Made by a program: the position numbers and the translations under genes
In this document: positions 43,932 through 64,000 of the stretch, piece by piece
How the letters are laid out: every line of letters begins with the position of its first letter
Numbering within the stretch: position 1 is the first letter of the stretch
The notes under the pieces: generated by a model
Seen by the model: the letters and a program-made list of their open reading frames with translations, nothing else
Told to the model about the DNA's origin: nothing
The model's database searches: none
From: Verrucomicrobiia bacterium
GTDB taxonomy: Bacteria > Verrucomicrobiota > Verrucomicrobiia > Limisphaerales > UBA11358
DNA length: 64,000 nucleotides
Assembly (NCBI GenBank): GCA_031290985.1
Contig: JARLJW010000086.1
Location: 845 to 64,844, forward strand
Reading direction: 5' to 3'

Positions 43932-45773
43932 ATGAGAGAAGAATTCGAAAAACTGGCGGCGGCAGGGAAGATCGAGGGCAAGCACGTCGAACCCCTCACC
44001 CATCTTGTGGAAGGTGGTTGCTGTTCCCACCGTAGCTGGGGTTTTGGCAAGATCAAGGCGGTGGACACCGTCTTTGCACGTTTCACCATCGATTTCCCCG
44101 GCAAGTCCGGCCACACGATGGATCTGTCATTCGCCGCGGAGCAACTCAAGGCGATTCCAAAGGACCATATCCTTGCCCGGAAGGCCGCGGACATCGAAGC
44201 CGTGCGCCATCTGGCCGCGCATCATCTGGACCTCATCAAGCTCGTGCTCAACAGCTTTGGTGGCAAGGCGACCGCCGACCAGATCCAGGCCTCGCTGGTG
44301 CCGGATGTCATCCGCGACGATTGGAAAAAATGGTGGGAAACCGCCAAGCGCGAGATGAAAAAGGACGGCCATTTCATCGTGCCGACGAAAAAGACCGAGC
44401 CGGTCGTTTATCAGGCGCAGGAAACCTCCCTGCAAGACCGCGTCCTCACCGATTTCCGCGCGGCGAAAGGTTTGAAGGCCCGCATCCTCGTCGTGGCGGA
44501 GATCATCAAGGCCGCGCCGGACCTGAAGGACAAGTATGCGGCGGCAAACGAAGTTGTCTCGGCCTTGAACGCCGACATCGCCTCGTATCAACGCACGCAG
44601 CCCGCGGTGGCCCTGGAGGCGATTTTTGCCCGCGATGAATTGCGCCACGAGACGGGCGCCCAGCCGGTGGCCGGTGAAGTCACCGCCGCCCAGATCTGGT
44701 CGCAGGACGGCATCAAGTTTGGCCCGCTGCTGGAGGCCATCCCCGCCGCCAAACACCATCGCGCCCTGGAATCCTTCAAGACCGCCAACCCGGAGAAATG
44801 GCCGGAAGTGCTGCGCGCCGCCATGAACCTGGTTTCCGCCAAGCTTGCGAAGGAGATCGCCAATTTGCTCATCAGCAACGGCATGCTGGACCAGCTCAAA
44901 GAGACCATGGCCCGGCTGATCAACCAGCACGGCGCCAGCAGCGAACTGCTGTTGTGGTTCGGCAAGGAACAGGTGCGCAATGAAGATTTCGTGGAGATCC
45001 TCGGGCCCGAAGTTTTCCGCGCCATGTTGTCCGCGATGGAGCGCGACCAGTTCAATGAGAAGCGCTCGAACCGCCTGCGCGATTTCATCCTGGAAGACCA
45101 GGCGTTGATCGCGGCACTGACGGCGACCGCCGACATCGAGATCGTGAAGGATCTGACCCGCGCCCTGAAGCTCTCGCCCGTGTTTGACGACATGGACAAG
45201 CGCTCGCTGCTCGCCCGGCTCGTGAAGGCCCACCCGGCGGTGCAGTCGCTCGTCAGCGGCGAACAGACCAAGCAGGAGGCCACGCTCATCGTCTCGTGGG
45301 AAAGCCTCGAACGCCGGCGCGTGGAATATCAGGACATCGTCGAGAAGAAGATTCCGGCGAACTCCAAGGAGATCGCCATCGCGCGCAGCTACGGCGACTT
45401 GCGCGAGAACCACGAATACAAGGCCGCCAAGGAAATGCAGAAGATCCTCATGCGCCAGAAGGAAGACCTGGAAGCCGCGCTCAACCGCGCGCGCGGCGCC
45501 GATTTCACCAACGTGAGCACCGAGATCGTCGCCCCGGGCACCATCGTCCAGGTCACGGACCTGCAATCGAACCACGTCGAGACCTTCACCATTCTCGGCG
45601 CCTGGGATTCCGATCCCGACAAGGGCATCATCAGCTATCTCACCCCGGTGGCGATGGCCCTCGCGAACCACAAGGCCGGCGACGAGGTGGACATCGAGAT
45701 GCACGGCCAGAAACGCCGCCAGCGCATCGACAAGATCACCGCCTGGAAAACGGTGGCCGAACCGGCCGCCTGA
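43932..45773 (+). CDS. greA: Transcription elongation factor GreA with a long N-terminal extension
   Basis: IAIARSYGDLRENHEYKAAK, LGAWDSDP..IISY.TP.A. Confidence 0.9.
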   Translation: MREEFEKLAAAGKIEGKHVEPLTHLVEGGCCSHRSWGFGKIKAVDTVFARFTIDFPGKSGHTMDLSFAAEQLKAIPKDHILARKAADIEAVRHLAAHHLDLIKLVLNSFGGKATADQIQASLVPDVIRDDWKKWWETAKREMKKDGHFIVPTKKTEPVVYQAQETSLQDRVLTDFRAAKGLKARILVVAEIIKAAPDLKDKYAAANEVVSALNADIASYQRTQPAVALEAIFARDELRHETGAQPVAGEVTAAQIWSQDGIKFGPLLEAIPAAKHHRALESFKTANPEKWPEVLRAAMNLVSAKLAKEIANLLISNGMLDQLKETMARLINQHGASSELLLWFGKEQVRNEDFVEILGPEVFRAMLSAMERDQFNEKRSNRLRDFILEDQALIAALTATADIEIVKDLTRALKLSPVFDDMDKRSLLARLVKAHPAVQSLVSGEQTKQEATLIVSWESLERRRVEYQDIVEKKIPANSKEIAIARSYGDLRENHEYKAAKEMQKILMRQKEDLEAALNRARGADFTNVSTEIVAPGTIVQVTDLQSNHVETFTILGAWDSDPDKGIISYLTPVAMALANHKAGDEVDIEMHGQKRRQRIDKITAWKTVAEPAA

Positions 45774-47454: not shown

Positions 47455-48141
47455 GTGAAACACTCTGGAAAAGCGGCGCAGTCCGCGCTGACACTCATCG
47501 GCCTGTCCGGCATGGCGGTCTTGCTGCTGCTGGGCTCGGCGGCGCTGGGCAAGATCGTGGCTTCGTTCGTGCTCGGGCTGGCCGGCGTGCTCGGGGCCTT
47601 GTGGGTGTTGTTCATCCTCTTCACGTTTTACTTTTTCCGCGACCCGGACCCGGCGGTGCCCACCGGCAAAAACCTCGTCCTCGCCCCCGGCCATGGCAAG
47701 GTGGACACGATCGACACCACGACGGAACCGGAGTTCATGGGCGGCGAATGCCGGCGCATCTCCATTTTTCTTTCCGTGTTCGACGTGCACGTCCAGAACT
47801 CGCCGGTCATGGGCCGCATCGCCTTTTTCCGCCACAAGCCGGGCCAGTATCTCAACGCCATGCGCACGGACTGCTCGCAGTTCAATGAGAACGTCCTGAT
47901 CGGCATCGAGGCGGGCGAACCGATGGGCCGCAAGGTCGGCGTGCGGCTGATCGCCGGCCTGATCGCCCGCCGCATCGTCCCGTGGGTCGCGCAAAACGAG
48001 GTCGTCCAGCGCGGCGAACGCATCAGCCTGATCCAGTTCGGCTCGCGCGTGGATGTGTATCTGCCGCTGGACTCCAAAGTAACCGTCAAGCTTGGCGACC
48101 GCGTGGTGGGCGGTGAAAGCATCCTGGCAGAACTCGTCTAA
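47455..48141 (+). CDS. psd: Phosphatidylserine decarboxylase proenzyme
   Basis: FFRDP, SIFLSVFDVH, AG.IARRI, FGSRVD. Confidence 0.93.
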   Translation: MKHSGKAAQSALTLIGLSGMAVLLLLGSAALGKIVASFVLGLAGVLGALWVLFILFTFYFFRDPDPAVPTGKNLVLAPGHGKVDTIDTTTEPEFMGGECRRISIFLSVFDVHVQNSPVMGRIAFFRHKPGQYLNAMRTDCSQFNENVLIGIEAGEPMGRKVGVRLIAGLIARRIVPWVAQNEVVQRGERISLIQFGSRVDVYLPLDSKVTVKLGDRVVGGESILAELV

Positions 48142-48145
48142 GCTC

Positions 48146-49012
48146 ATGGCCACCGAACCGCAAACCAAACCTTCGGGCGCTGAACCCGAAAAATTGAAGA
48201 TTTATTTTCTGCCGAACCTGTTCACGGCGGGCAATCTCTTCTGCGGCTTCGTGGCGCTGACCCAGATTGTGGAGGCCAAGCTGACACCGGACGCCCTTGG
48301 ACACGTCAACTGGATGCCCATCAAGGTGGCGCTCGCCTTCATTTTGCTCGCGTGCATCTTCGATCTGTTCGACGGCCGGGTCGCGCGCATGGGCGGCCAT
48401 GAAAGCCCGTTCGGGCGGGAGTTCGACTCGCTGGCGGACCTGGTTTCCTTCGGCGTTGCGCCGGCTTTTCTGGTGCATCGCGTCGTGCTGCACAATGCCC
48501 TGCCGGAGGAGTATGTGGAACTCGGCTGGTTTATCGCGTCGATTTATCTGATCTGCGGCGCGTTCCGACTGGCGCGGTTCAACTGCCTGTCGGCCATGAA
48601 CCTCCCGGGTGCGGGCAAGGATTTCCTTGGGTTCCCGATCCCGTCCGCCGCCGGTCTCGTCGCGTCCCTGACGCTGTTCATCATCAAGCTGAATGAAAAG
48701 GAAAAGGACCTCGGCCACTGGGGCTGGCTGCTGCCGTCCGTTTTGATCTTCCTGTCCGCGATGATGGTGAGCGAGGTGAAGTATCCCAGTTTCAAGGCCT
48801 TTGGACTCCGTTCGTCCACCACCTTTTTGAAGCTGGTCGTCGTGGCCCTGTTCGCCGGCAGCCTGCTGATCCTGCGCGAGAAGATTTTGTACTACGTCCT
48901 GCCGCTGTTCTTCACCGGCTACCTGCTTTACGGATTTGTCCGCCCGCACATCTCGCGCGCGTGGCGGCGGGAAATTGAAGAGGACGAGGATGACGCGGAC
49001 GGAGCGACTTGA
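48146..49012 (+). CDS. pssA: CDP-diacylglycerol--serine O-phosphatidyltransferase
   Basis: LPNLFTAGNLFCG, DLFDGRVAR, FDSLADLVSFG, RLARFN. Confidence 0.92.
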   Translation: MATEPQTKPSGAEPEKLKIYFLPNLFTAGNLFCGFVALTQIVEAKLTPDALGHVNWMPIKVALAFILLACIFDLFDGRVARMGGHESPFGREFDSLADLVSFGVAPAFLVHRVVLHNALPEEYVELGWFIASIYLICGAFRLARFNCLSAMNLPGAGKDFLGFPIPSAAGLVASLTLFIIKLNEKEKDLGHWGWLLPSVLIFLSAMMVSEVKYPSFKAFGLRSSTTFLKLVVVALFAGSLLILREKILYYVLPLFFTGYLLYGFVRPHISRAWRREIEEDEDDADGAT

Positions 49013-52608: not shown

Positions 52609-53154
52609 TCAACCCAGCCGGTAACGTCGCAGCTTTGGGTCCACTTCCTGCGCCCAGGCGTCGAGGCCGCCGCGCAGGCAGCGCACGTTCTGCAGCCCGT
52701 GCCCCATGAAATACGCCGCCGCATCCAGCCCGTTCTTGCCCGCATGATCAATCACCACGACGGGCTGGTTGTTGGAGCCGCTGCTCATCAATTCCTGCAT
52801 CACGGCCTGCGAAAGCAGCACCGAACCGGCGATATTGACCGCCTCAAACTCCTCCCGCGAGCGGACATCCACGAGTTTCACCGCCGGGTCTTGCTTCAAA
52901 AGCTCCGCCAGTTCCTGCGGCGAAATCAAAACCTTCGCATCCTGCTCATGGCTCGAGCGGATGTGCGTCAACACTTCCGCCACGTCGAGGTTGCCATTCC
53001 GGGCGCAGACTTCCGCCAGCGTCTCGGTCGGCTGAAAACCGCAACTGCTGCACCCGCCAATATGGTAGCGGCGGAACAAGGCCCGTTGCGCGCCGGGAAA
53101 ATTCTCCAGCACCGCGCTCATGGGCGACTGCGGATTGACATTTGATTCGTTCAT
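52609..53154 (-). CDS. DUF1858-like CxxC domain fused to a rhodanese domain
   Basis: VLENFPGAQRALFRRYHIGGCSSCGF..ETLAEV; LVDVR...I.G, VIDHAG, LRGGLDAW..EVDP. Confidence 0.8.
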   Translation of the reverse strand: MNESNVNPQSPMSAVLENFPGAQRALFRRYHIGGCSSCGFQPTETLAEVCARNGNLDVAEVLTHIRSSHEQDAKVLISPQELAELLKQDPAVKLVDVRSREEFEAVNIAGSVLLSQAVMQELMSSGSNNQPVVVIDHAGKNGLDAAAYFMGHGLQNVRCLRGGLDAWAQEVDPKLRRYRLG

Positions 53155-53234
53155 CAGATTCGCCTCCAGTCTGCCACAGAACCGGCGGCTGTCCATTCTC
53201 GCAAATCTGATTTCGGGCTGGCACCATGGTGGCA

Positions 53235-55343
53235 ATGGAACTGCGCGAGTTCGCCGAATCGGTTTTGTTCACCACGTCGCTGGAGGAAAAGCTCCGGACG
53301 CCGGCGGTCATCACCGACGACCATCCCGGGGCGCCGCTCATCACCCCGGCGGCGCCGGGCCGTCCTGCGCAAATGCAGTTCAAGCCCCATGCCGCCGGCA
53401 AAAGCGAGTTCCCCGGCCTCCATCGCCTCGAAGACAAAGCCGAACGCGGCAAGCTGCTCCACTTCTTCGGCAACCACGAACTGCTCGCCACCGAGCTCAT
53501 GGCGCTGGTGCTGCTCAAGTTTCCCGACGCCCCCGCCGCCTTCCGCAAGGGCGTCCTCCAAACCCTCAAGGACGAGCAGGAACACACGCGCCTCTACATC
53601 GAGCGCATGAAATCCTGCGGGATCGAATTCGGCGAACTGCCCGTGAGCGGCTATTTCTGGCGGTGCGTCTCGCCGATGGAAAACCCCATCGACTACGTTG
53701 CCAGTCTCTGCCTCACGTTTGAGCAGGCCAACCTTGACTTCGCCCGCCACTTCGCGAAAAGCTTCACCGCCATTGGCGATCAGGATACGGGCAACCTGCT
53801 GGAGAAAATCTATCGCGACGAAATCGGCCACGTCGCCTACGGGCTGAAATGGTTTCGCCGCTGGAAAAATCCAAACGAATCCGACTGGGAGGCGTTCTGC
53901 CGCACCTTGAAATTTCCGCTTTCACCCCAGCGGGCCAAGGGTTTGACCCTTAATTTCGCCGGCCGGAAAGCCGCCGGGCTGGACGAACATTTCATCGCCG
54001 AGTTGAACGTCTACTCCCAGTCGAAAGGCCGCACGCCCAGCGTGTTTCTGTTCAATCCCTTCGCCGAGGGCCGCATCGCCGAAGGCAAGACCTTCAACCC
54101 CACCAAGCCCCAGGCGCAACTGGCCCGCGACCTGGAAAACCTCCCGCAATTCCTCTGCCGCCAGGACGATGTCGTGCTGACCGGCGAAAAACCGTCCGTG
54201 GAATTTCTCAGCGGCATCAAGCAGGCCGGTTTTCCGTTGCCGGAATTCGTGCCGCTGGATTCCGTCGCCACCCTCGCGGAACGCAAACTGGGCAGCCTGC
54301 GCCCCTGGGCGTGGGGACCGGACAGTTTTGAAAAACTGAAACCCGTCATGGCCAGCGTGACCGGTGAAAAACGCGATGATGCCAGACGCTTCAACGCCGG
54401 CATCGCGGAACTTTATGCAAAATCCTGGAGCGCCGGACTGCTCCGGAAAATCATTTCGTCGAAGTCCACCCTGCCCGCCTGGCTCTGCACGACAGACGAG
54501 GTCGGTGTGGCGGTGCGCTCACTCGACGACGCGCTTGCCGCCATCGCTGACATCCGCGCGCGCGGTCAGCACAAGATCATCATCAAGGCAGCGCTCGGCG
54601 TCGCGGGCAGCAATGCCATGCGCCTTTTCGAGCCAGCCATCCTCGAGACGCAAAAACGCTGGCTGCAGAACGCTTTTGCGCACAAGCGCGAACTCGTGGT
54701 CGAACCGTGGCTGGAGCGGCTCATGGATTTCTCCGTGCAACTGGAGATGAGCGAACGCGGGCTCAAGCTCTGCGGTTATACCGGCCTGCTGAATGACGCG
54801 CGCGGCCAGTTCATCGCCAACTTTGCGGAGGCTCACCACCACAAGCGCATTCCCGCCAAGGTCATCTCCCAGTTCAACGCCCCGGTGGATGTCTCCGGCC
54901 AGTTGCTGGAATTGTATGGCGACATTTTTGCGGTCCTCGAAACGGAGTTGAAAGCCCGGGATTTCACCGGCCCCATCGGCATCGACGCCTTCGTGTATCG
55001 CGCCAGCGACGGCACGGTAAAACTAAAACCAGTCGTGGAAATTAACCCGCGCTATACCATGGGCCGCGTGTTGGTGGAGCTGATGCGTCAGGCGTGCCAG
55101 AACAGTTTTGGACGATTCCAATTGGTAAACCCGGTCCAGTTGCGCGCCGCCGGCACCGAAAACTTTCCCGCGTATGCACGGATGTTGGAGCAAAAATTCC
55201 CGCTACAACTCGAAGGCGAGCCGCTGCCCAAGATCCGTTCCGGCGCCCTGTGCCTGAATGACCCCGCCAAGGCGCAGGTCTGCGTTGCTGTCTTCCAAGT
55301 CTGGCGGACTCCGCAGGATTTTTCACCGGCACCGGCCAGCTAG
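53235..55343 (+). CDS. DUF455 ferritin-like diiron domain fused to an ATP-grasp-like domain
   Basis: NHELLATE, DEQEH, FEQANLD, DEIGH; then IIKAALGVAGS, VVEPWLE, GPIGIDA, EINPRYTMG; start 53226 or 53235. Confidence 0.8.
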   Translation: MELREFAESVLFTTSLEEKLRTPAVITDDHPGAPLITPAAPGRPAQMQFKPHAAGKSEFPGLHRLEDKAERGKLLHFFGNHELLATELMALVLLKFPDAPAAFRKGVLQTLKDEQEHTRLYIERMKSCGIEFGELPVSGYFWRCVSPMENPIDYVASLCLTFEQANLDFARHFAKSFTAIGDQDTGNLLEKIYRDEIGHVAYGLKWFRRWKNPNESDWEAFCRTLKFPLSPQRAKGLTLNFAGRKAAGLDEHFIAELNVYSQSKGRTPSVFLFNPFAEGRIAEGKTFNPTKPQAQLARDLENLPQFLCRQDDVVLTGEKPSVEFLSGIKQAGFPLPEFVPLDSVATLAERKLGSLRPWAWGPDSFEKLKPVMASVTGEKRDDARRFNAGIAELYAKSWSAGLLRKIISSKSTLPAWLCTTDEVGVAVRSLDDALAAIADIRARGQHKIIIKAALGVAGSNAMRLFEPAILETQKRWLQNAFAHKRELVVEPWLERLMDFSVQLEMSERGLKLCGYTGLLNDARGQFIANFAEAHHHKRIPAKVISQFNAPVDVSGQLLELYGDIFAVLETELKARDFTGPIGIDAFVYRASDGTVKLKPVVEINPRYTMGRVLVELMRQACQNSFGRFQLVNPVQLRAAGTENFPAYARMLEQKFPLQLEGEPLPKIRSGALCLNDPAKAQVCVAVFQVWRTPQDFSPAPAS

Positions 55344-60568: not shown

Positions 60569-63500
60569 ATGAATCCAACTAAAACCATTATTTTTGCTGT
60601 GATTCTGTTATCCGCACGGTTCGCTGGAAATGCCTTTGCTGGTTCAGGGGCGATTGATCCCACCTACGCGCCTGTCGTCACCGGTTTTGTGAATGCCCTG
60701 GCCGTCCAACCGAACGGACAATTGCTGATTGCCGGCAACTTTACCAGCATCAACAGCCAGAGCCGGTACCGGCTGGCGCGCCTTTATGCGGACGGCACCC
60801 TGGACCCCGTATTTTTGAACGGGCAGAGCGGTCCCAGCGGCACGGTCAACGCCCTGGTGCTGCAGAGCGACGGGCACATCCTCATCGCGGGCAACTTCAG
60901 TGCGGTCAATGGCACCACGCGCCCCGGGGTGGCGCGTTTGAATCCGAACGGAACGCTCGACGGCAGCTTTGTTCCGACCAATTACCCGCAAACCACCTAT
61001 GCAACGGCCGTGCAAAGCGACAACAAGGTGATCGTCGGCGGAGCGGGATTTATCTTCCGGCTGAATGCCGACGGGACCATGGACAGCACGTTTGTGCAAG
61101 CGGTATCGCAGCCCACCGTCTATGCGATCGCCGTGCAACCCGACGGCAAAATATTGATCGGCGGGGCCTTCTCAACTTTCATCGGCACGACGCGGAACAA
61201 CCTTGCGCGGCTGAACACCGACGGCACTGTGGACGGCACTTTTCTCAACAATCTCACCGGGGCGTCCAGCAACGTCCGATGCATTCAAGTCCAGTCCGAT
61301 GGCAAGGTTCTGATTGGCGGCGACTTTACCACGGTCAACGGCACGGGCCGTTACCATGTTGCCCGGCTCACCAGCGCGGGCATTCTGGACACCGGGTTTG
61401 CCCCCGGGAATATTTCCGGCAATTCGGTCTATGCGATGGCCCTCCAGCCGGACAACAGCATCGTGATTGGAGGCAGCTTTAGCGACTACTATTACAACAA
61501 CGGGCTTACCAGTTACTCCTATAACATTGCCCGGCTCTATCCGGACGGGTCGATGGACAACACTTTTTATTGTCCCAACAATTATTTCTCCACGACGTAT
61601 GCCCTCGGCCTGCAAAGCGACGGCGGGATTCTGGCCGGCGGCAATTTCACCTATTCTTCGACGAACCGCTATCTCGCGCGCGTCTACGGCAATCTTTACC
61701 CGCCGGAGTTCACGCTGCAGCCGACGAACCGCGCGGTCGCGGTTGGCACCAATGTCACTTTCACCGCCCACGTCAACAATCCCACGACCACTTACTTTCA
61801 GTGGCGCAAGAACGGCACGGACATTGCCGGGGCGACGGAAATGGCTTACACGCTCTACAATGTCCAACTCAGCGATGCGGGCGTTTATGCGGTCTTCGCC
61901 AACAATTCCATCGCCGGGGTCACCAGCAGCAACGCGCTCCTCCAGGTGGGCATGCCGCCGGCGATCACGCAGCCGCCGGCCAGCCTGACGGTGACGCAGG
62001 GGCAGCCGGCGACGTTCACCCTCGGCGCGAGCGGCACGCCGCTGAATTATTATTGGAAGAAGAACGGGGTGTTTATTCCGGGGGCGACGAACGCGGCGCT
62101 CACCTTCGCCAACGCGGTGTACACCAACGCCGGCAGCTATATGTGCCAGGTCAGCAATTTTCTGGGGAACTTGACCAGTGTTGCGGCCACGCTCACCGTT
62201 TACGCACCGCCCGCGATTCTCGCGCAACCCGCCGGCCAAACCGTGGGGGTCAGTTCCAATTTCACGGTGGCGGTTTCGGCCAATGGAACAGCCCCGCTGG
62301 CGTATCAATGGCTTAAAGACGGCAATCTACTGGCCAATCCCGCCGGCGCAAGCATCACTATCACCAATGCGCAGGTCACGGATGGCGGCGGCTATTCGGT
62401 GATCATCGCCAATTCTTTCGGCAGCGTGACGAGCGCCGTAGCGGTCATCAGCGTCACGAATTTCCCACCCTTCATCGTGACGCAGCCGGCGGGTGGAAAT
62501 TATCCGGTCGGGAGCAATTTCAGCCTGTCGGTCGTGGCCGGCGGCACCGCGCCGTTTGCGTATCAGTGGAGCACCAATGGCGCGCCCATTCCCGGGGCGG
62601 TGGCCGCCAGCTATGCGGTGACGAATGCGCAGACCAATGATTCCTGGGCTTATACCGTGACGGTCACGAACATCAGCGGCGGCATCACCAGCGCGGCGGC
62701 GGTGGTAAATGTCGGGTACGCGCCGGTCGTCGTGCAACAGCCGTTGTCCGTCACCAACAACGCCGGCGGCACGAATGGTTTCGCGGTGACGCTGTTTGGC
62801 AGCAGCCCGCTGCTCTACCAGTGGTTCAAGGACGGCATGCCCATTCCCAACGCGACAAATATTTCACTGATGCTGCCCAATTTGCAATCCAACCAAGTCG
62901 GTTATTATTTTGTGAGCGTAACCAACATTTATGGCGGCACGGTGAGTTCCAATGCGGCGCTGGTGCTTGCCGGCGTTCCATTCAGCCTCTGGCAGGGGTT
63001 GGTGGCTTATTATCCGTTCAACGGGAATGCCAATGATGCGAGCGGGAATGGCTACAATTTAATCAACAACGGGGCAACCTACGGAACGGATATGTTCGGG
63101 AATACAAACGCCGCCGCAGTGTTCAGCGCGGGCACGGCAATTCCCCCCGCCGGGAATTTTGACGATAGTTTTGGGGGGCAATGGATGAGTTTCGGAACGG
63201 CGGCACCGCTTGATAATTTGTCAGCGGTCACCGTTTCAATGTGGCTGAATCCGGGGAACTTTTTGCCGCCGGCGGCCGGCAACGCCGCCAGCGGGCGGGT
63301 TTTGTATCAGGAATCGGTGGTGGACATCGACACGCAAGGCAACAGTCCGCAAGGTTTCGGTTTTACTTACGGAGATGGAAACAACTGGTTTAATCAAACC
63401 GGCCTTGACGTGACCAATGGAACCGCCGGATTTTCAACCAATGGCAGCTGGGTGCATTGTGTTTTGACGGCGGATGCGACCGGTCAAAAACTGTTTGCCA

Positions 63501-64000
63501 ACGGGGCATTGTTAGAATCCGATTCCACCCTGTTTACCGGGACAGGAACAAACGGTTACATCCTGGGTTTAGGCGCATACTACAACGGTTCAATTGATGA
63601 TCTGCGGATCTACAACCGTGCCCTGTCCTCCAATGAAGTGGCTTCGTTATATGCGCTGGAAGCCGACCTGCCGGTCATTTCCCAGCAGCCCCAATCACAA
63701 ACAAACATGTTCGGCGGCTCCGCGCAGTTTGCCGTGACAGCCACTGCGCAAAATCCATTGCTGTATCAATGGCAGTTCAACAGCGCGAACATTGCCGGGG
63801 CAACGAACGCCGCGCTGGTTCTGACGAATCTCCAATATACCAATGCCGGCAGCTACGGCGTGACCATCAGCAACGCCTTGGCCGGCGTCACGAGTTCCAA
63901 CGCCACGCTCACCGTATGGCAACCCGTCCCGCAATTCGCCACCTCCGGTCATACCATGACCAACGGCGCATTCGGCATCTCCTTGGGTGGTTTGACCGGA
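60569..64000 (+). CDS. Large secreted or surface protein: 7 delta-60 propeller repeats, 6 Ig domains, LamG-like domain (3-prime end beyond the window)
   Basis: Manual translation open for 1144 codons to the window end; Q(P/S)DG repeats, YQW.K.G Ig motifs, LVAYYPFNGNAND...IDDLRIYNRAL. Confidence 0.92.
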   Translation, partial: MNPTKTIIFAVILLSARFAGNAFAGSGAIDPTYAPVVTGFVNALAVQPNGQLLIAGNFTSINSQSRYRLARLYADGTLDPVFLNGQSGPSGTVNALVLQSDGHILIAGNFSAVNGTTRPGVARLNPNGTLDGSFVPTNYPQTTYATAVQSDNKVIVGGAGFIFRLNADGTMDSTFVQAVSQPTVYAIAVQPDGKILIGGAFSTFIGTTRNNLARLNTDGTVDGTFLNNLTGASSNVRCIQVQSDGKVLIGGDFTTVNGTGRYHVARLTSAGILDTGFAPGNISGNSVYAMALQPDNSIVIGGSFSDYYYNNGLTSYSYNIARLYPDGSMDNTFYCPNNYFSTTYALGLQSDGGILAGGNFTYSSTNRYLARVYGNLYPPEFTLQPTNRAVAVGTNVTFTAHVNNPTTTYFQWRKNGTDIAGATEMAYTLYNVQLSDAGVYAVFANNSIAGVTSSNALLQVGMPPAITQPPASLTVTQGQPATFTLGASGTPLNYYWKKNGVFIPGATNAALTFANAVYTNAGSYMCQVSNFLGNLTSVAATLTVYAPPAILAQPAGQTVGVSSNFTVAVSANGTAPLAYQWLKDGNLLANPAGASITITNAQVTDGGGYSVIIANSFGSVTSAVAVISVTNFPPFIVTQPAGGNYPVGSNFSLSVVAGGTAPFAYQWSTNGAPIPGAVAASYAVTNAQTNDSWAYTVTVTNISGGITSAAAVVNVGYAPVVVQQPLSVTNNAGGTNGFAVTLFGSSPLLYQWFKDGMPIPNATNISLMLPNLQSNQVGYYFVSVTNIYGGTVSSNAALVLAGVPFSLWQGLVAYYPFNGNANDASGNGYNLINNGATYGTDMFGNTNAAAVFSAGTAIPPAGNFDDSFGGQWMSFGTAAPLDNLSAVTVSMWLNPGNFLPPAAGNAASGRVLYQESVVDIDTQGNSPQGFGFTYGDGNNWFNQTGLDVTNGTAGFSTNGSWVHCVLTADATGQKLFANGALLESDSTLFTGTGTNGYILGLGAYYNGSIDDLRIYNRALSSNEVASLYALEADLPVISQQPQSQTNMFGGSAQFAVTATAQNPLLYQWQFNSANIAGATNAALVLTNLQYTNAGSYGVTISNALAGVTSSNATLTVWQPVPQFATSGHTMTNGAFGISLGGLTG

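What the first reader, a model, noticed from the sequence alone, without database searches (positions are those of the whole stretch)
53235..55343. Diiron ferritin-like (DUF455) domain fused to an ATP-grasp ligase-like domain
Seen: a full E / ExxH / E / ExxH ligand set in the first ~265 aa, then ATP-grasp motifs (K..G.AG loop, VVEPW, GIDA, EINPR). Known: ferritin-like diiron enzymes hydroxylate, N-oxidise or desaturate, and ATP-grasp enzymes form amide bonds. DUF455 has no assigned function that I know of. Inference: a two-step oxidise-and-ligate enzyme for an unknown metabolite, peptide or tRNA/protein modification. It stands alone outside any obvious biosynthetic cluster.
Basis: partly seen in the sequence, partly recalled or inferred. 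Interest (0 to 1): 0.7.

Follow-up and report, generated by a model that had tools for sequence, protein, structure and literature searches.

The report
Diiron oxidase fused to ATP-grasp ligase
This gene encodes a real, conserved but never-studied two-part enzyme (an iron-dependent oxygenase-type half joined to an ATP-driven ligase half), and comparison of genomes gives a first functional lead: the oxygenase half is lost only in genomes that carry a second copy of the tRNA-prenylating enzyme MiaA, often encoded right next to the ligase.

Summary
Window 53235-55343 (+) is one 702-codon ORF. Its residues 37-254 match DUF455 (Pfam E 1.8e-45), and the E82 / E114xxH117 / E163 / E196xxH199 ligand set is invariant in 67 homologues. 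Residues ~268-700 have no Pfam match. They fold (AlphaFold pLDDT 94.8) as a pre-ATP-grasp plus ATP-grasp ligase closest to PGM1, a Streptomyces peptide ligase, LdmS and BesA. K451, D584, E602, N604 and R606 are invariant. The fusion has thousands of members, mostly Verrucomicrobia, but is accessory: 48 of 121 genomes in its order. It has no conserved neighbours and no literature.

A new lead concerns MiaA. All 14 genomes whose ATP-grasp has lost the diiron core (two or three independent deletions) lack DUF455 entirely. All 14 carry a second MiaA paralogue ("MiaA2"), and in 11 it directly follows the ligase gene. MiaA2 occurs in only 17 of 401 genomes of the order.

My best reading (about 40%) is an oxidise-then-ligate enzyme acting on N6-prenyl-adenine, either tRNA i6A37 or a free nucleotide. 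An unrelated amino-acid or dipeptide pathway is nearly as likely. The substrate is unproven.

The parts
53235..55343 (+). Whole gene: 702-aa DUF455::ATP-grasp fusion protein (stop included)
   Evidence: more than 3651 homologues, the top 120 all ~700 aa
53343..53996 (+). DUF455 ferritin-like four-helix-bundle domain (aa 37-254)
   Evidence: Pfam PF04305 E 1.8e-45; long helices H68-95, H101-127, H151-179 and H183-210 in the model
53478..53480 (+). E82, first carboxylate ligand (HELLATE helix)
   Evidence: Invariant in A1 and A3, including proteobacterial stand-alone DUF455
53574..53585 (+). E114-x-x-H117 ligand motif (EQEH)
   Evidence: Invariant
53721..53723 (+). E163, third-helix carboxylate ligand (FEQ)
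   Evidence: Invariant
53820..53831 (+). E196-x-x-H199 ligand motif (DEIGH)
   Evidence: Invariant
54036..54494 (+). Pre-ATP-grasp (N) domain, aa ~268-420, with the invariant RPW358(G/A)W motif; it begins directly after DUF455 with no linker
   Evidence: Alignments A1 and A2; PF18604 Pre-ATP-grasp is hit by 7 of 20 homologues of the C-terminal half; Foldseek alignments to PGM1 and 8ynd span ~470-495 columns
54495..55154 (+). ATP-grasp core (aa ~421-640)
   Evidence: Foldseek hits 8ynd, 3wvq, 7r8q and 8yi6 at E 1e-11 to 2e-13; profile hit to LdmS 7r8p
54585..54608 (+). K451 plus the glycine-rich flexible loop (KAALGVAG), for ATP phosphate binding
   Evidence: K451 invariant, G458 conserved in at least 90%; equivalent to LdmS Lys173 and its P-loop (PMC9486568)
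54702..54704 (+). E490 (VVEPW), adenine/hinge contact
   Evidence: Conserved in at least 90%; aligned to LdmS IIE215Q; role taken from PMC9486568
54984..54986 (+). D584 (GIDA), first Mg2+ ligand
   Evidence: Invariant; by motif position the counterpart of LdmS Asp288 (my inference)
55038..55052 (+). E602-I-N604-P-R606: second Mg2+ ligands and the catalytic Arg that positions the carboxylate / acyl-phosphate
   Evidence: All three invariant; acidic residue followed four positions later by Arg, as in LdmS Asp301 / Arg305

Best explanation
The gene encodes a soluble bifunctional enzyme. Shown: an N-terminal DUF455 domain carries a complete ferritin-like diiron-carboxylate site. It is fused without a linker to, and predicted to pack tightly against, a PGM1/LdmS-type ATP-grasp ligase with a complete ATP/Mg2+/acyl-phosphate site. 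The protein is an accessory, self-contained unit. The ligase half can exist and be maintained without the diiron half. Inferred mechanism: the diiron domain uses O2 and two electrons to hydroxylate a substrate. The ATP-grasp domain activates a carboxylate, probably an amino acid, as an acyl-phosphate and joins it to that substrate. Inferred pathway (my best guess, not demonstrated): the substrate is the N6-isopentenyl side chain of adenine, on tRNA (i6A37, made by MiaA) or on a free nucleotide. DUF455 would perform MiaE-like hydroxylation to give a hydroxy-isopentenyl group. The ATP-grasp would then acylate (esterify) or otherwise elaborate that group. In lineages that lost the diiron core, the MiaA2 paralogue encoded next to the ligase would supply an already hydroxylated side chain. 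One route is use of the MEP-pathway intermediate HMBDP instead of DMAPP, as I recall the Agrobacterium cytokinin isopentenyltransferases Tzs and Tmr doing. That would make the oxidase dispensable.
For: Architecture and catalytic competence:
- DUF455 scores 155.9 bits.
- All six metal ligands and K451, D584, E602, N604 and R606 are invariant in 67 homologues.
- The AlphaFold model has pLDDT 94.8 and pTM 0.93 for the whole chain.
- Foldseek top hits are the Streptomyces peptide ligase 8ynd, PGM1 3wvq/3wvr, LdmS 7r8q and BesA 8yi6.
- The motifs map onto LdmS residues with known roles.

The ligase is the core activity:
- The diiron core was deleted in different ways in different lineages. L062 keeps DUF455 aa 1-25 fused in frame to the ligase. 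L039 is a 5' truncation. At least one member of the MiaA2-adjacent clade (L189) keeps ~44 aa.
- All of these retain the ligase motifs and nest inside the fused clade in the tree.

Link to MiaA:
- The gene directly after the DUF455-less ligase is a MiaA by TIGR00174 (221 bits, cut-off 148.65) and PF01715. The gap is 2-9 nt or a 4-nt overlap.
- This copy is a second, distinct paralogue: 59-100% identical within its clade and ~37-44% identical to housekeeping MiaA.
- MiaA2 occurs in 17 of 401 genomes of the order. Of these, 13 have a DUF455-less ligase, 3 have the fusion (including the window's own genome) and 1 has neither.
- All 14 DUF455-less genomes have MiaA2 and no PF04305 hit anywhere.
- In the 121-genome sample the counts are 7/7 for DUF455-less, 2/41 for fused and 0/73 for genomes without the ligase. 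Fisher p is 5e-7 and 1.5e-4, uncorrected for phylogeny.
- Within the families that hold the DUF455-less form, the ligase and MiaA2 are mostly present together or absent together (f57, f60, f70, f85).
- In 59 evaluable metagenomic MiaA2 loci, the ligase is the only recurrent neighbour (10 loci).

Chemistry:
- The MiaE profile's only hit in a 3.7-Mb S. meliloti record falls on its DUF455 gene (E 0.004).
- hhalign puts three DUF455 metal-ligand motifs (E114xxH117, E163, E196xxH199) in register with a verrucomicrobial MiaE over 110 columns (E 0.015), while a rubrerythrin control gives nothing.
- IspG, which makes HMBDP, is present in all 10 genomes tested.
Against: - About 39 of 41 fused genomes in the sample have no MiaA2, so the fusion does not need it. 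It would have to act on the product of housekeeping MiaA.
- 49 of 59 evaluable metagenomic MiaA2 loci have no ligase upstream.
- The MiaA2-adjacent ligases form one clade, so the adjacency arose once. The Fisher tests overstate independence.
- No RNA-binding domain is recognisable. The pI is unremarkable (median 6.9).
- The closest solved relatives of the ligase all join amino acids or peptides, not nucleic acids.
- The similarity of DUF455 to MiaE is weak. By Pfam it is no better than the similarity to EncFtn or rubrerythrin (PDB profile search).
- One fusion-bearing genome (G314) also has a genuine MiaE.
- Stand-alone DUF455 genes in alpha-proteobacteria sit behind a peroxiredoxin, not behind tRNA genes.
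- HMBDP use by MiaA2, and ester formation by the ligase, are pure inference.
Confidence: 0.4

Rival explanations
1. A self-contained small-molecule pathway unrelated to MiaA. The diiron domain hydroxylates or N-oxygenates a common amino acid or amine. The ATP-grasp domain, working as an L-amino-acid ligase like LdmS, BesA or PGM1, joins it to a second amino acid. The product would be a modified dipeptide such as a signal, siderophore-like compound, osmolyte or antimetabolite.
For: The closest solved structures are all amino-acid or peptide ligases (LdmS profile hit; weak NCBIfam LdmS hit). There are no conserved neighbours, as expected if both steps are in one protein and the substrates are primary metabolites. 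The distribution is patchy and accessory: 48/121 in the order, 5/201 in the phylum-wide draw, and absent from a same-genus genome. Ferritin-like diiron enzymes that oxidise amine substrates are known (AurF, CmlI; from my own knowledge).
Against: It does not explain why the diiron core is lost only in MiaA2-bearing genomes. It does not explain why the ligase is translationally coupled to MiaA2 in 11 genomes and 10 metagenomic loci. No exporter, resistance gene or regulator is linked.
Confidence: 0.33
2. A protein- or peptide-modifying enzyme. The ATP-grasp would add an amino acid to a side chain or terminus of a protein or ribosomal peptide (as I recall RimK, LysX and graspetide ligases doing; PGM1 also acts on ribosomal peptides). 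The diiron domain would hydroxylate the same residue.
For: PGM1 and the 8ynd enzyme ligate onto peptides (Pfam PF18604 description as I recall it). A DeaD/DbpA helicase lies within 8 kb in 21 of 97 loci. A SUI1-family gene is nearby in two distant loci.
Against: No conserved small precursor gene or partner protein lies next to the fusion. The helicase sits at varying distance and orientation and only in related genomes, so it looks like inherited synteny. The distribution is accessory, which argues against a core translation role.
Confidence: 0.12
3. The DUF455 half is not an oxygenase. It could be an iron- or peroxide-handling or regulatory module, for example a ferroxidase-like or O2/iron sensor that gates the ligase.
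For: Weak Pfam similarity is highest to encapsulated-ferritin-like and rubrerythrin families. Stand-alone DUF455 genes follow a peroxiredoxin gene in Sinorhizobium and Sphingomonas. The ligase functions without it in some lineages.
Against: Additional invariant polar residues lie on the ligand-bearing helices (H76, N80, H81, N166, D168). Basic residues outside the site are also invariant (K19, R43; R71 is nearly so). Both suggest a specific substrate pocket. A tight, linker-less fusion to an enzyme is more typical of consecutive catalysis. This reading gives no explanation for the MiaA2 pattern.
Confidence: 0.08

Closest known systems
PGM1 (pheganomycin peptide ligase, PDB 3WVQ/3WVR) and the Streptomyces ATP-grasp peptide ligase 8YND/8YNQ
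   Same: Best structural matches of the C-terminal half (E 2e-13 to 1e-11, TM on target 0.56-0.66, ~450-495 aligned columns). The match includes the extra N-terminal pre-ATP-grasp domain. PF18604 is hit by 7 of 20 homologues of the C-terminal half.
   Different: Only 13-14% identity. No Pfam or HMMER match for the window protein itself. The window protein is fused to a diiron domain. It does not lie in a natural-product cluster. Its substrate is unknown.
LdmS (S. aureus L-aspartate--L-methionine ligase, PDB 7R8P/7R8Q)
   Same: The only PDB sequence reached by a profile of the C-terminal half (E 0.033). Foldseek E 8e-12. The residue roles map one to one: Lys173/K451, Glu215/E490, Asp288/D584, Asp301/E602, Arg305/R606 (PMC9486568).
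   Different: LdmS is a stand-alone enzyme in an hmrA/ldmS operon (PMC9486568). Identity is ~14-15%. Its Met-carboxylate-binding Arg47 and N-loop were not traceable here.
DUF455 (Pfam PF04305 / COG2833), stand-alone ~275-aa proteins of Proteobacteria
   Same: Same domain, with the same six ligands and further invariant residues (H76, D168, D195, R244). No function is assigned.
   Different: 25-29% identity to the window's domain. They are not fused to a ligase. In alpha-proteobacteria they follow a peroxiredoxin gene.
MiaE (tRNA ms2io6A37 hydroxylase, PF06175; PDB 8FHC)
   Same: Ferritin-like diiron monooxygenase. Weak reciprocal profile hits exist. hhalign puts three DUF455 ligand motifs and the connecting 'I-x-F-G' loop in register. 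The proposed chemistry (allylic hydroxylation of i6A) would explain the MiaA2 pattern.
   Different: Not the same family. The window protein gives no PF06175 hit. MiaE is ~190-220 aa (190-aa ORF in G314; 223-residue chain 8FHC) and lacks the DUF455 N- and C-terminal extensions. One fusion-bearing genome also has a true MiaE.
MiaA (tRNA dimethylallyltransferase, TIGR00174); this applies to the linked paralogue MiaA2, not to the window gene
   Same: MiaA2 passes the equivalog cut-off (214-221 bits against 148.65) over the full length. It keeps the P-loop, DSxQ.Y, HHL.D, VGGTGLY and C-terminal ..FAK.Q.TWF motifs.
   Different: A second copy alongside a higher-scoring housekeeping MiaA. The P-loop is altered (GTNASGKS rather than the GPTASGK(T/S) I recall for housekeeping MiaA). 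It is ~40% identical to the housekeeping copy and occurs in only ~4% of genomes of the order.

Membership tests
DUF455 (PF04305) | Whole-protein score above Pfam's gathering cut-off | tested here: met
   155.9 bits against 34.3; aa 37-254 match profile positions 33-246 of 247
Ferritin-like diiron-carboxylate superfamily | E / ExxH / E / ExxH ligands carried on the four long helices of a bundle | tested here: met
   E82, E114xxH117, E163 and E196xxH199 are invariant. They lie in model helices H68-95, H101-127, H151-179 and H183-210.
Ferritin-like diiron-carboxylate superfamily | Binds two Fe (or Mn/Fe) ions and activates O2 | not testable with these tools
   Needs metal analysis and spectroscopy of purified protein
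ATP-grasp superfamily | ATP-grasp fold | tested here: met
   Foldseek against the PDB gave 513 matches at E <= 0.001, and all 50 listed are ATP-grasp enzymes. The best is 8ynd at E 2e-13 with TM(target) 0.66. The model has pLDDT 94.8.
ATP-grasp superfamily | Conserved Lys for ATP phosphates, hinge Glu, two or three acidic/Asn Mg2+ ligands, and a catalytic Arg four residues after the second acidic ligand | tested here: met
   K451, D584, E602, N604 and R606 are invariant; K396 and E490 are conserved in at least 90%. Roles are assigned by correspondence with LdmS.
ATP-grasp superfamily | ATP-dependent carboxylate-nucleophile ligation through an acyl-phosphate | not testable with these tools
   Needs an enzyme assay
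PGM1 / LdmS-type ligases with a pre-ATP-grasp domain (PF18604) | Recognisable pre-ATP-grasp N-domain | tested here: inconclusive
   PF18604 is hit by 7 of 20 aligned homologues (best E 7.8e-5) but not by the window protein. Foldseek alignments to PGM1 and 8ynd are long enough (470-495 columns) to include the N-domain.
MiaE (PF06175) | Score above the Pfam cut-off (27 bits) | tested here: not met
   No hit for the window protein. Only 1 of 19 DUF455 sequences reaches E 0.0036. hhalign gives E 0.015 and probability 3%. It is not a member; at most it works like one.
MiaA (TIGR00174); applies to the linked MiaA2 gene | Equivalog score cut-off and full-length match | tested here: met
   221.4 and 213.8 bits against 148.65, covering positions 1-286 of 288; PF01715 covers 1-243 of 243
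Anti-phage defence systems (PADLOC) | Match to any PADLOC model | tested here: not met
   No hit for the fusion, for MiaA2 or for the DUF455-less ligase

The most novel reading that the evidence does not exclude
DUF455 would be a second, MiaE-unrelated family of prenyl-adenine hydroxylases. The DUF455::ATP-grasp fusion, or the MiaA2 + ATP-grasp operon that replaces it, would then build a so-far undescribed hypermodified adenosine at tRNA position 37: hydroxy-isopentenyl-adenosine carrying an ATP-dependently attached acyl or aminoacyl group. Alternatively it would build a free cytokinin-like conjugate. From memory, DUF455 proteins also exist in plants and Dictyostelium. Plants have no miaE homologue, and their tRNA cis-zeatin hydroxylase is an acknowledged open question (PMC12066119). 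The family would then be a candidate for that missing enzyme.
Probability: 0.12. Interest if true: 0.9.

Novelty: new variant of a known kind. Interest (0 to 1): 0.62.

Why it matters
Both halves belong to well-understood superfamilies, but neither DUF455 nor this ligase clade has an assigned reaction. The family is nevertheless large. There were more than 3,600 word-index hits and 2,425 cluster representatives at 50% identity for the ligase half alone. It is abundant in soil, peat and freshwater Verrucomicrobia. A fusion is a natural 'Rosetta stone' showing that the two activities act in one pathway.

The new comparative result gives the first concrete and cheap experiment for de-orphaning DUF455. 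The diiron core is deleted only where a second MiaA is present, and the ligase is operon-coupled to that MiaA. The experiment is nucleoside LC-MS of tRNA from E. coli expressing the fusion, or expressing MiaA2 plus the ligase.

If the link holds, it would add a new branch to A37 tRNA modification or to bacterial cytokinin-like chemistry. It would also nominate a candidate family for the unidentified cis-zeatin hydroxylase of plants. If it fails, the enzyme is still a compact two-step maker of an unknown modified dipeptide-type metabolite.

Tried and rejected
1. Single-sequence AlphaFold was useless (pLDDT 35). It was replaced by a run on a 67-sequence alignment.

2. Rhodanese as a partner. The divergent CxxC / Cys-less rhodanese gene (52609-53235, -) is next to the fusion in only 9 of 97 loci, all close relatives. 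I reject it as a functional partner.

3. DeaD/DbpA helicase as a partner. It lies within 8 kb in 21 of 97 loci, at varying distance, side and strand. I treat this as synteny.

4. 'Split' DUF455 + ligase gene pairs (L114, L115, L116, L125). They overlap by 4 nt or are separated by small gaps. They sit on long-read or low-coverage contigs, and L114 also has a split aspartate decarboxylase. They are probably frameshift errors, not true splits.

5. Distant stand-alone ligases (P0152, P0166) and distant fusions (P0220, P0254). Their neighbours share nothing (HD protein, thioesterase, YaeQ, SUI1).

6. Specific DUF455-MiaE homology. Pfam weak hits are generic ferritin-like. The PDB profile search lists MiaE only fifth, at E 0.36. 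It is not established.

7. Defence-system reading. There are no PADLOC hits.

8. MiaA2 in the window's own genome as bin contamination. This was suspected because G000 is 6.0 Mb, the 12 listed same-genus genomes are 2.3-4.3 Mb, and none of them has MiaA2. Contig C30 has typical GC and tetranucleotide composition. Contamination is not supported but not excluded.

9. Isoelectric point as a hint of RNA binding was uninformative.

10. Promoter and terminator scans around the gene were at chance level.
Full report
**1. The observation**

Window 53235-55343 (+) is a single uninterrupted ORF of 702 codons. The start at 53235 (MELREF...) coincides with the N-terminus of the family consensus.

Pfam places DUF455 (PF04305) on residues 37-254 at 155.9 bits against a cut-off of 34.3. 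The rest of the protein is invisible to sequence libraries:
- Pfam gives only DUF3182 at E 0.015.
- NCBIfam gives LdmS at E 0.11.
- A phmmer search of the PDB gives nothing.

**2. Conservation and fold**

The word-index search found more than 3,651 homologues. The top 120 are all ~700 aa and 71-100% identical. The only names they carry are 'DUF455 family protein' and 'uncharacterized ferritin-like protein (DUF455 family)'.

An exhaustive search with the C-terminal 427 aa found 2,425 cluster representatives. Most are ~700-aa fusions with the match starting near residue 280; some are ~430-470-aa stand-alone proteins.

I aligned 67 fusions down to ~32% identity (A1). Two groups of positions are invariant:
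- Around the metal site: H76, N80, H81, E82, E87, E114, H117, E163, N166, D168, E196 and H199.
- In the ligase half: W358, K451, D584, E602, N604 and R606.

E82, E114, H117, E163, E196 and H199 are also invariant in the three proteobacterial stand-alone DUF455 proteins aligned (25-29% identity).

A single-sequence AlphaFold run failed (pLDDT 35). With A1 the model reached pLDDT 94.8 and pTM 0.93 over the whole chain. That pTM implies a fixed, intimate arrangement of the two halves. DUF455 runs directly into the first strand of the ligase (...SKGRTPSVFLFNP...) with no linker.

Foldseek against the PDB returned only ATP-grasp enzymes among the 50 listed matches:
- the Streptomyces peptide ligase 8YND (E 2e-13, TM on target 0.66);
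- PGM1 3WVQ/3WVR;
- LdmS 7R8Q;
- BesA 8YI6;
- then biotin carboxylases and PurK at ~1e-10.

A profile of the stand-alone relatives reaches LdmS (E 0.033). Seven of the 20 aligned C-half sequences hit Pfam's Pre-ATP-grasp domain.

Using the LdmS paper (PMC9486568), the residues correspond as follows:

| This protein | LdmS | Role |
|---|---|---|
| K451 | Lys173 | ATP phosphates |
| E490 | Glu215 | adenine contact |
| D584 | Asp288 | Mg2+ |
| E602 | Asp301 | Mg2+ |
| R606 | Arg305 | catalytic Arg positioning the carboxylate |

**3. Distribution and context**

The gene is accessory:
- In a phylum-wide draw of 201 genomes (all listed as the same class), only 5 carry the fusion.
- In the window's own order, 48 of 121 carry the fusion or its ligase half.
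- One same-genus genome lacks it.
- The window's genome has a single DUF455 domain. No control genome has the family above its cut-off.

I ran tblastn with the window's neighbours against 97 related loci. Nothing is conserved beyond the nearest relatives. The rhodanese gene appears in 9 loci. The DeaD/DbpA helicase appears in 21, at changing positions. Distant fusions and distant stand-alone ligases have unrelated neighbours.

Apparent two-gene 'splits' sit on error-prone long-read contigs and are probably frameshifts.

Literature searches for DUF455, COG2833 and PF04305 gave no functional study.

**4. A new lead: loss of the diiron core goes with a second MiaA**

Seven genomes of the 121-genome order sample matched only residues ~263-690 of the query. 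In all seven, the gene immediately downstream on the same strand is a ~300-aa protein. The gap is 2-9 nt, or the genes overlap by 4 nt. This protein passes NCBI's MiaA equivalog model (221 bits against 148.65) and PF01715 over its full length.

These genomes also have a higher-scoring housekeeping MiaA elsewhere. The linked copy is therefore a paralogue, which I call MiaA2. Within the clade it is 59-100% identical; it is ~37-44% identical to housekeeping MiaA.

Among 401 genomes of the order, MiaA2 occurs in 17:
- 13 have a DUF455-less ligase. In 11 of them it is adjacent to MiaA2.
- 3 have the fusion: the window's own genome (contig C30, between an FKBP gene and dprA), G267 and G479.
- 1 incomplete genome has neither.

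A further DUF455-less locus (L039, genome G602) also has MiaA2. The Pfam DUF455 model finds nothing at E <= 0.01 anywhere in the 14 DUF455-less genomes.

In the 121-genome sample, MiaA2 is present in 7/7 DUF455-less genomes, 2/41 fused genomes and 0/73 genomes without the ligase. Fisher p is 5e-7 and 1.5e-4. These values are not corrected for relatedness.

Within the families that hold the DUF455-less form, the ligase and MiaA2 mostly appear or vanish together (f57, f60, f70, f85).

A maximum-likelihood tree of the ligase halves shows the MiaA2-adjacent proteins as one clade (support 100/99) nested deep inside the fusions of the same order. Their stand-alone state is therefore derived.

The deletions differ between lineages:
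- L062 keeps DUF455 residues 1-25 joined in frame to ...LVFNPFAEGY.
- At least one member of the adjacent clade (L189) keeps about 44 N-terminal residues.
- L039 is a 5' truncation that keeps the last residues of DUF455 (...SQAEGRPPAVFWFNP) and sits in a different part of the tree.

So the diiron core was removed two or three times, each time in a genome with MiaA2.

In 59 evaluable metagenomic MiaA2 loci, 10 have the ligase directly upstream. It is the only recurrent neighbour.

**5. Interpretation**

*Shown.* The protein is a catalytically complete diiron domain fused to a catalytically complete ATP-grasp ligase. The ligase is the indispensable part. The diiron part becomes dispensable where MiaA2 is present.

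*Inferred.* MiaA2 supplies what the diiron domain otherwise makes. MiaA enzymes put a dimethylallyl group on N6 of A37. MiaE, a ferritin-like diiron enzyme, hydroxylates that group (PMC12066119).

I recall that the Agrobacterium isopentenyltransferases Tzs and Tmr can use the hydroxylated donor HMBDP directly. IspG, which makes HMBDP, is present in all 10 genomes tested. The simplest scheme therefore has two steps:
1. DUF455 hydroxylates an isopentenyl-adenine. Alternatively, MiaA2 installs the hydroxylated chain directly.
2. The ATP-grasp attaches an activated carboxylate to the product.

*Weak chemical support.* The MiaE model's only hit in a 3.7-Mb S. meliloti record is its DUF455 gene (E 0.004). 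hhalign puts three DUF455 ligand motifs (E114xxH117, E163, E196xxH199) in register with a verrucomicrobial MiaE (E 0.015), while a rubrerythrin control gives nothing.

*Caveats.*
- DUF455 is not a member of the MiaE family.
- Its weak Pfam affinities are generic ferritin-like.
- One fusion-bearing genome has a real MiaE as well.
- Most fusion genomes lack MiaA2.
- Most MiaA2 loci lack the ligase.
- The adjacency arose once.
- No RNA-binding module is evident.
- All solved relatives of the ligase act on amino acids or peptides.

I put the MiaA / prenyl-adenine reading at about 0.4. An unrelated amino-acid or dipeptide pathway is at about 0.33, protein or peptide modification at about 0.12, and a non-oxygenase role of DUF455 at about 0.08.

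**6. Comparison with what is known, and novelty**

The N-half is a bona fide DUF455 member and therefore belongs to the ferritin-like diiron superfamily. The C-half is a bona fide ATP-grasp enzyme nearest to the PGM1/LdmS/BesA group. It is too divergent (13-15% identity) to be filed in any characterised family.

The combination is uncharacterised, so I rate it a new variant of a known kind. Earlier notes of this scan on sister genomes reached the same architectural conclusion and the same closest relatives. None mentions MiaA.

**7. Verdict**

The finding is a large orphan enzyme family that now has a specific, cheaply testable hypothesis. Interest is 0.62.

Noticed in passing
window 52609-53235 (-): This gene is divergently transcribed from the fusion. 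It encodes a ~200-aa protein with an N-terminal GCSSCG (CxxC) segment and a rhodanese domain (Pfam E 1.2e-14). The rhodanese active-site loop reads DHAGKNG, so the catalytic Cys is replaced. It lies next to the fusion in only 9 of 97 related loci.
   Followed up: partly
G000 contig C30 = L112 7867-8766 (+): The window's own genome carries the MiaA2 paralogue (GTNASGKS P-loop) between an FKBP-type isomerase gene and dprA, in addition to a housekeeping MiaA on contig C46. None of the 12 listed same-genus genomes has MiaA2. G000 is 6.0 Mb and they are 2.3-4.3 Mb. The composition of C30 is typical of the bin.
   Followed up: partly
L118 5366-6678 (S. meliloti) and L119 5426-6702 (Sphingomonas): Stand-alone DUF455 genes of two alpha-proteobacterial orders directly follow a ~155-aa peroxiredoxin gene, with an 18-nt gap or a 4-nt overlap. 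This looks like a conserved pair that could hint at peroxide-shunt or redox coupling of DUF455.
   Followed up: no
L062 4267-5697 (+): A natural in-frame deletion allele. The first 25 residues of the DUF455 domain are joined directly to the start of the ligase (MELRDLAEPVLFATTLDDKLQSPAV|LVFNPFAEGY). It would be useful as a ready-made domain-deletion construct.
   Followed up: yes
L081 4751-5991: A stand-alone ligase (P0127, ~45% identical to the window's C-half) is preceded by ~1.2 kb with no convincing ORF and no DUF455 remnant. The MiaA2 status of that organism could not be checked.
   Followed up: partly
G314 contig C21 35313-35870 = L139 302-874: A genuine MiaE (PF06175, E 2.5e-44) is present in one fusion-bearing Verrucomicrobia genome. 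It was absent from the other six genomes tested.
   Followed up: partly
L026, L030, L032, L039, L040, L042, L055, L057, L061, L066, L068: Public MAG records titled 'uncultured Bifidobacteriaceae/Bifidobacterium' carry this Verrucomicrobia-type gene at 55-65% identity, and some share neighbouring genes (DeaD helicase, rhodanese) with the window. The taxonomic labels of these records look wrong.
   Followed up: no
window 47455-49012 (+): Phosphatidylserine decarboxylase-like and CDP-alcohol phosphatidyltransferase (PssA-like) ORFs overlap by ~50 nt (named from reading the translations; Pfam not run on them). A LysE-family exporter gene (Pfam-confirmed) starts 1 nt after the second ORF. This looks like a compact lipid-synthesis operon.
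   Followed up: no
window 43932-45773 (+): A 613-aa protein has GreA/GreB N- and C-terminal domains only in its last ~160 residues. The ~450-aa N-terminal extension is unassigned.
   Followed up: no
window 60569-64000 (+, runs off the end): A secreted protein of more than 1,144 aa with beta-propeller-like 'delta-60' repeats followed by many Ig-like repeats. The ORF continues beyond the window.
   Followed up: no
L114 374-735: The aspartate decarboxylase gene is split into 50- and 70-aa pieces on the same contig that shows a 'split' DUF455/ligase pair. This points to frameshift errors in that long-read assembly.
   Followed up: partly
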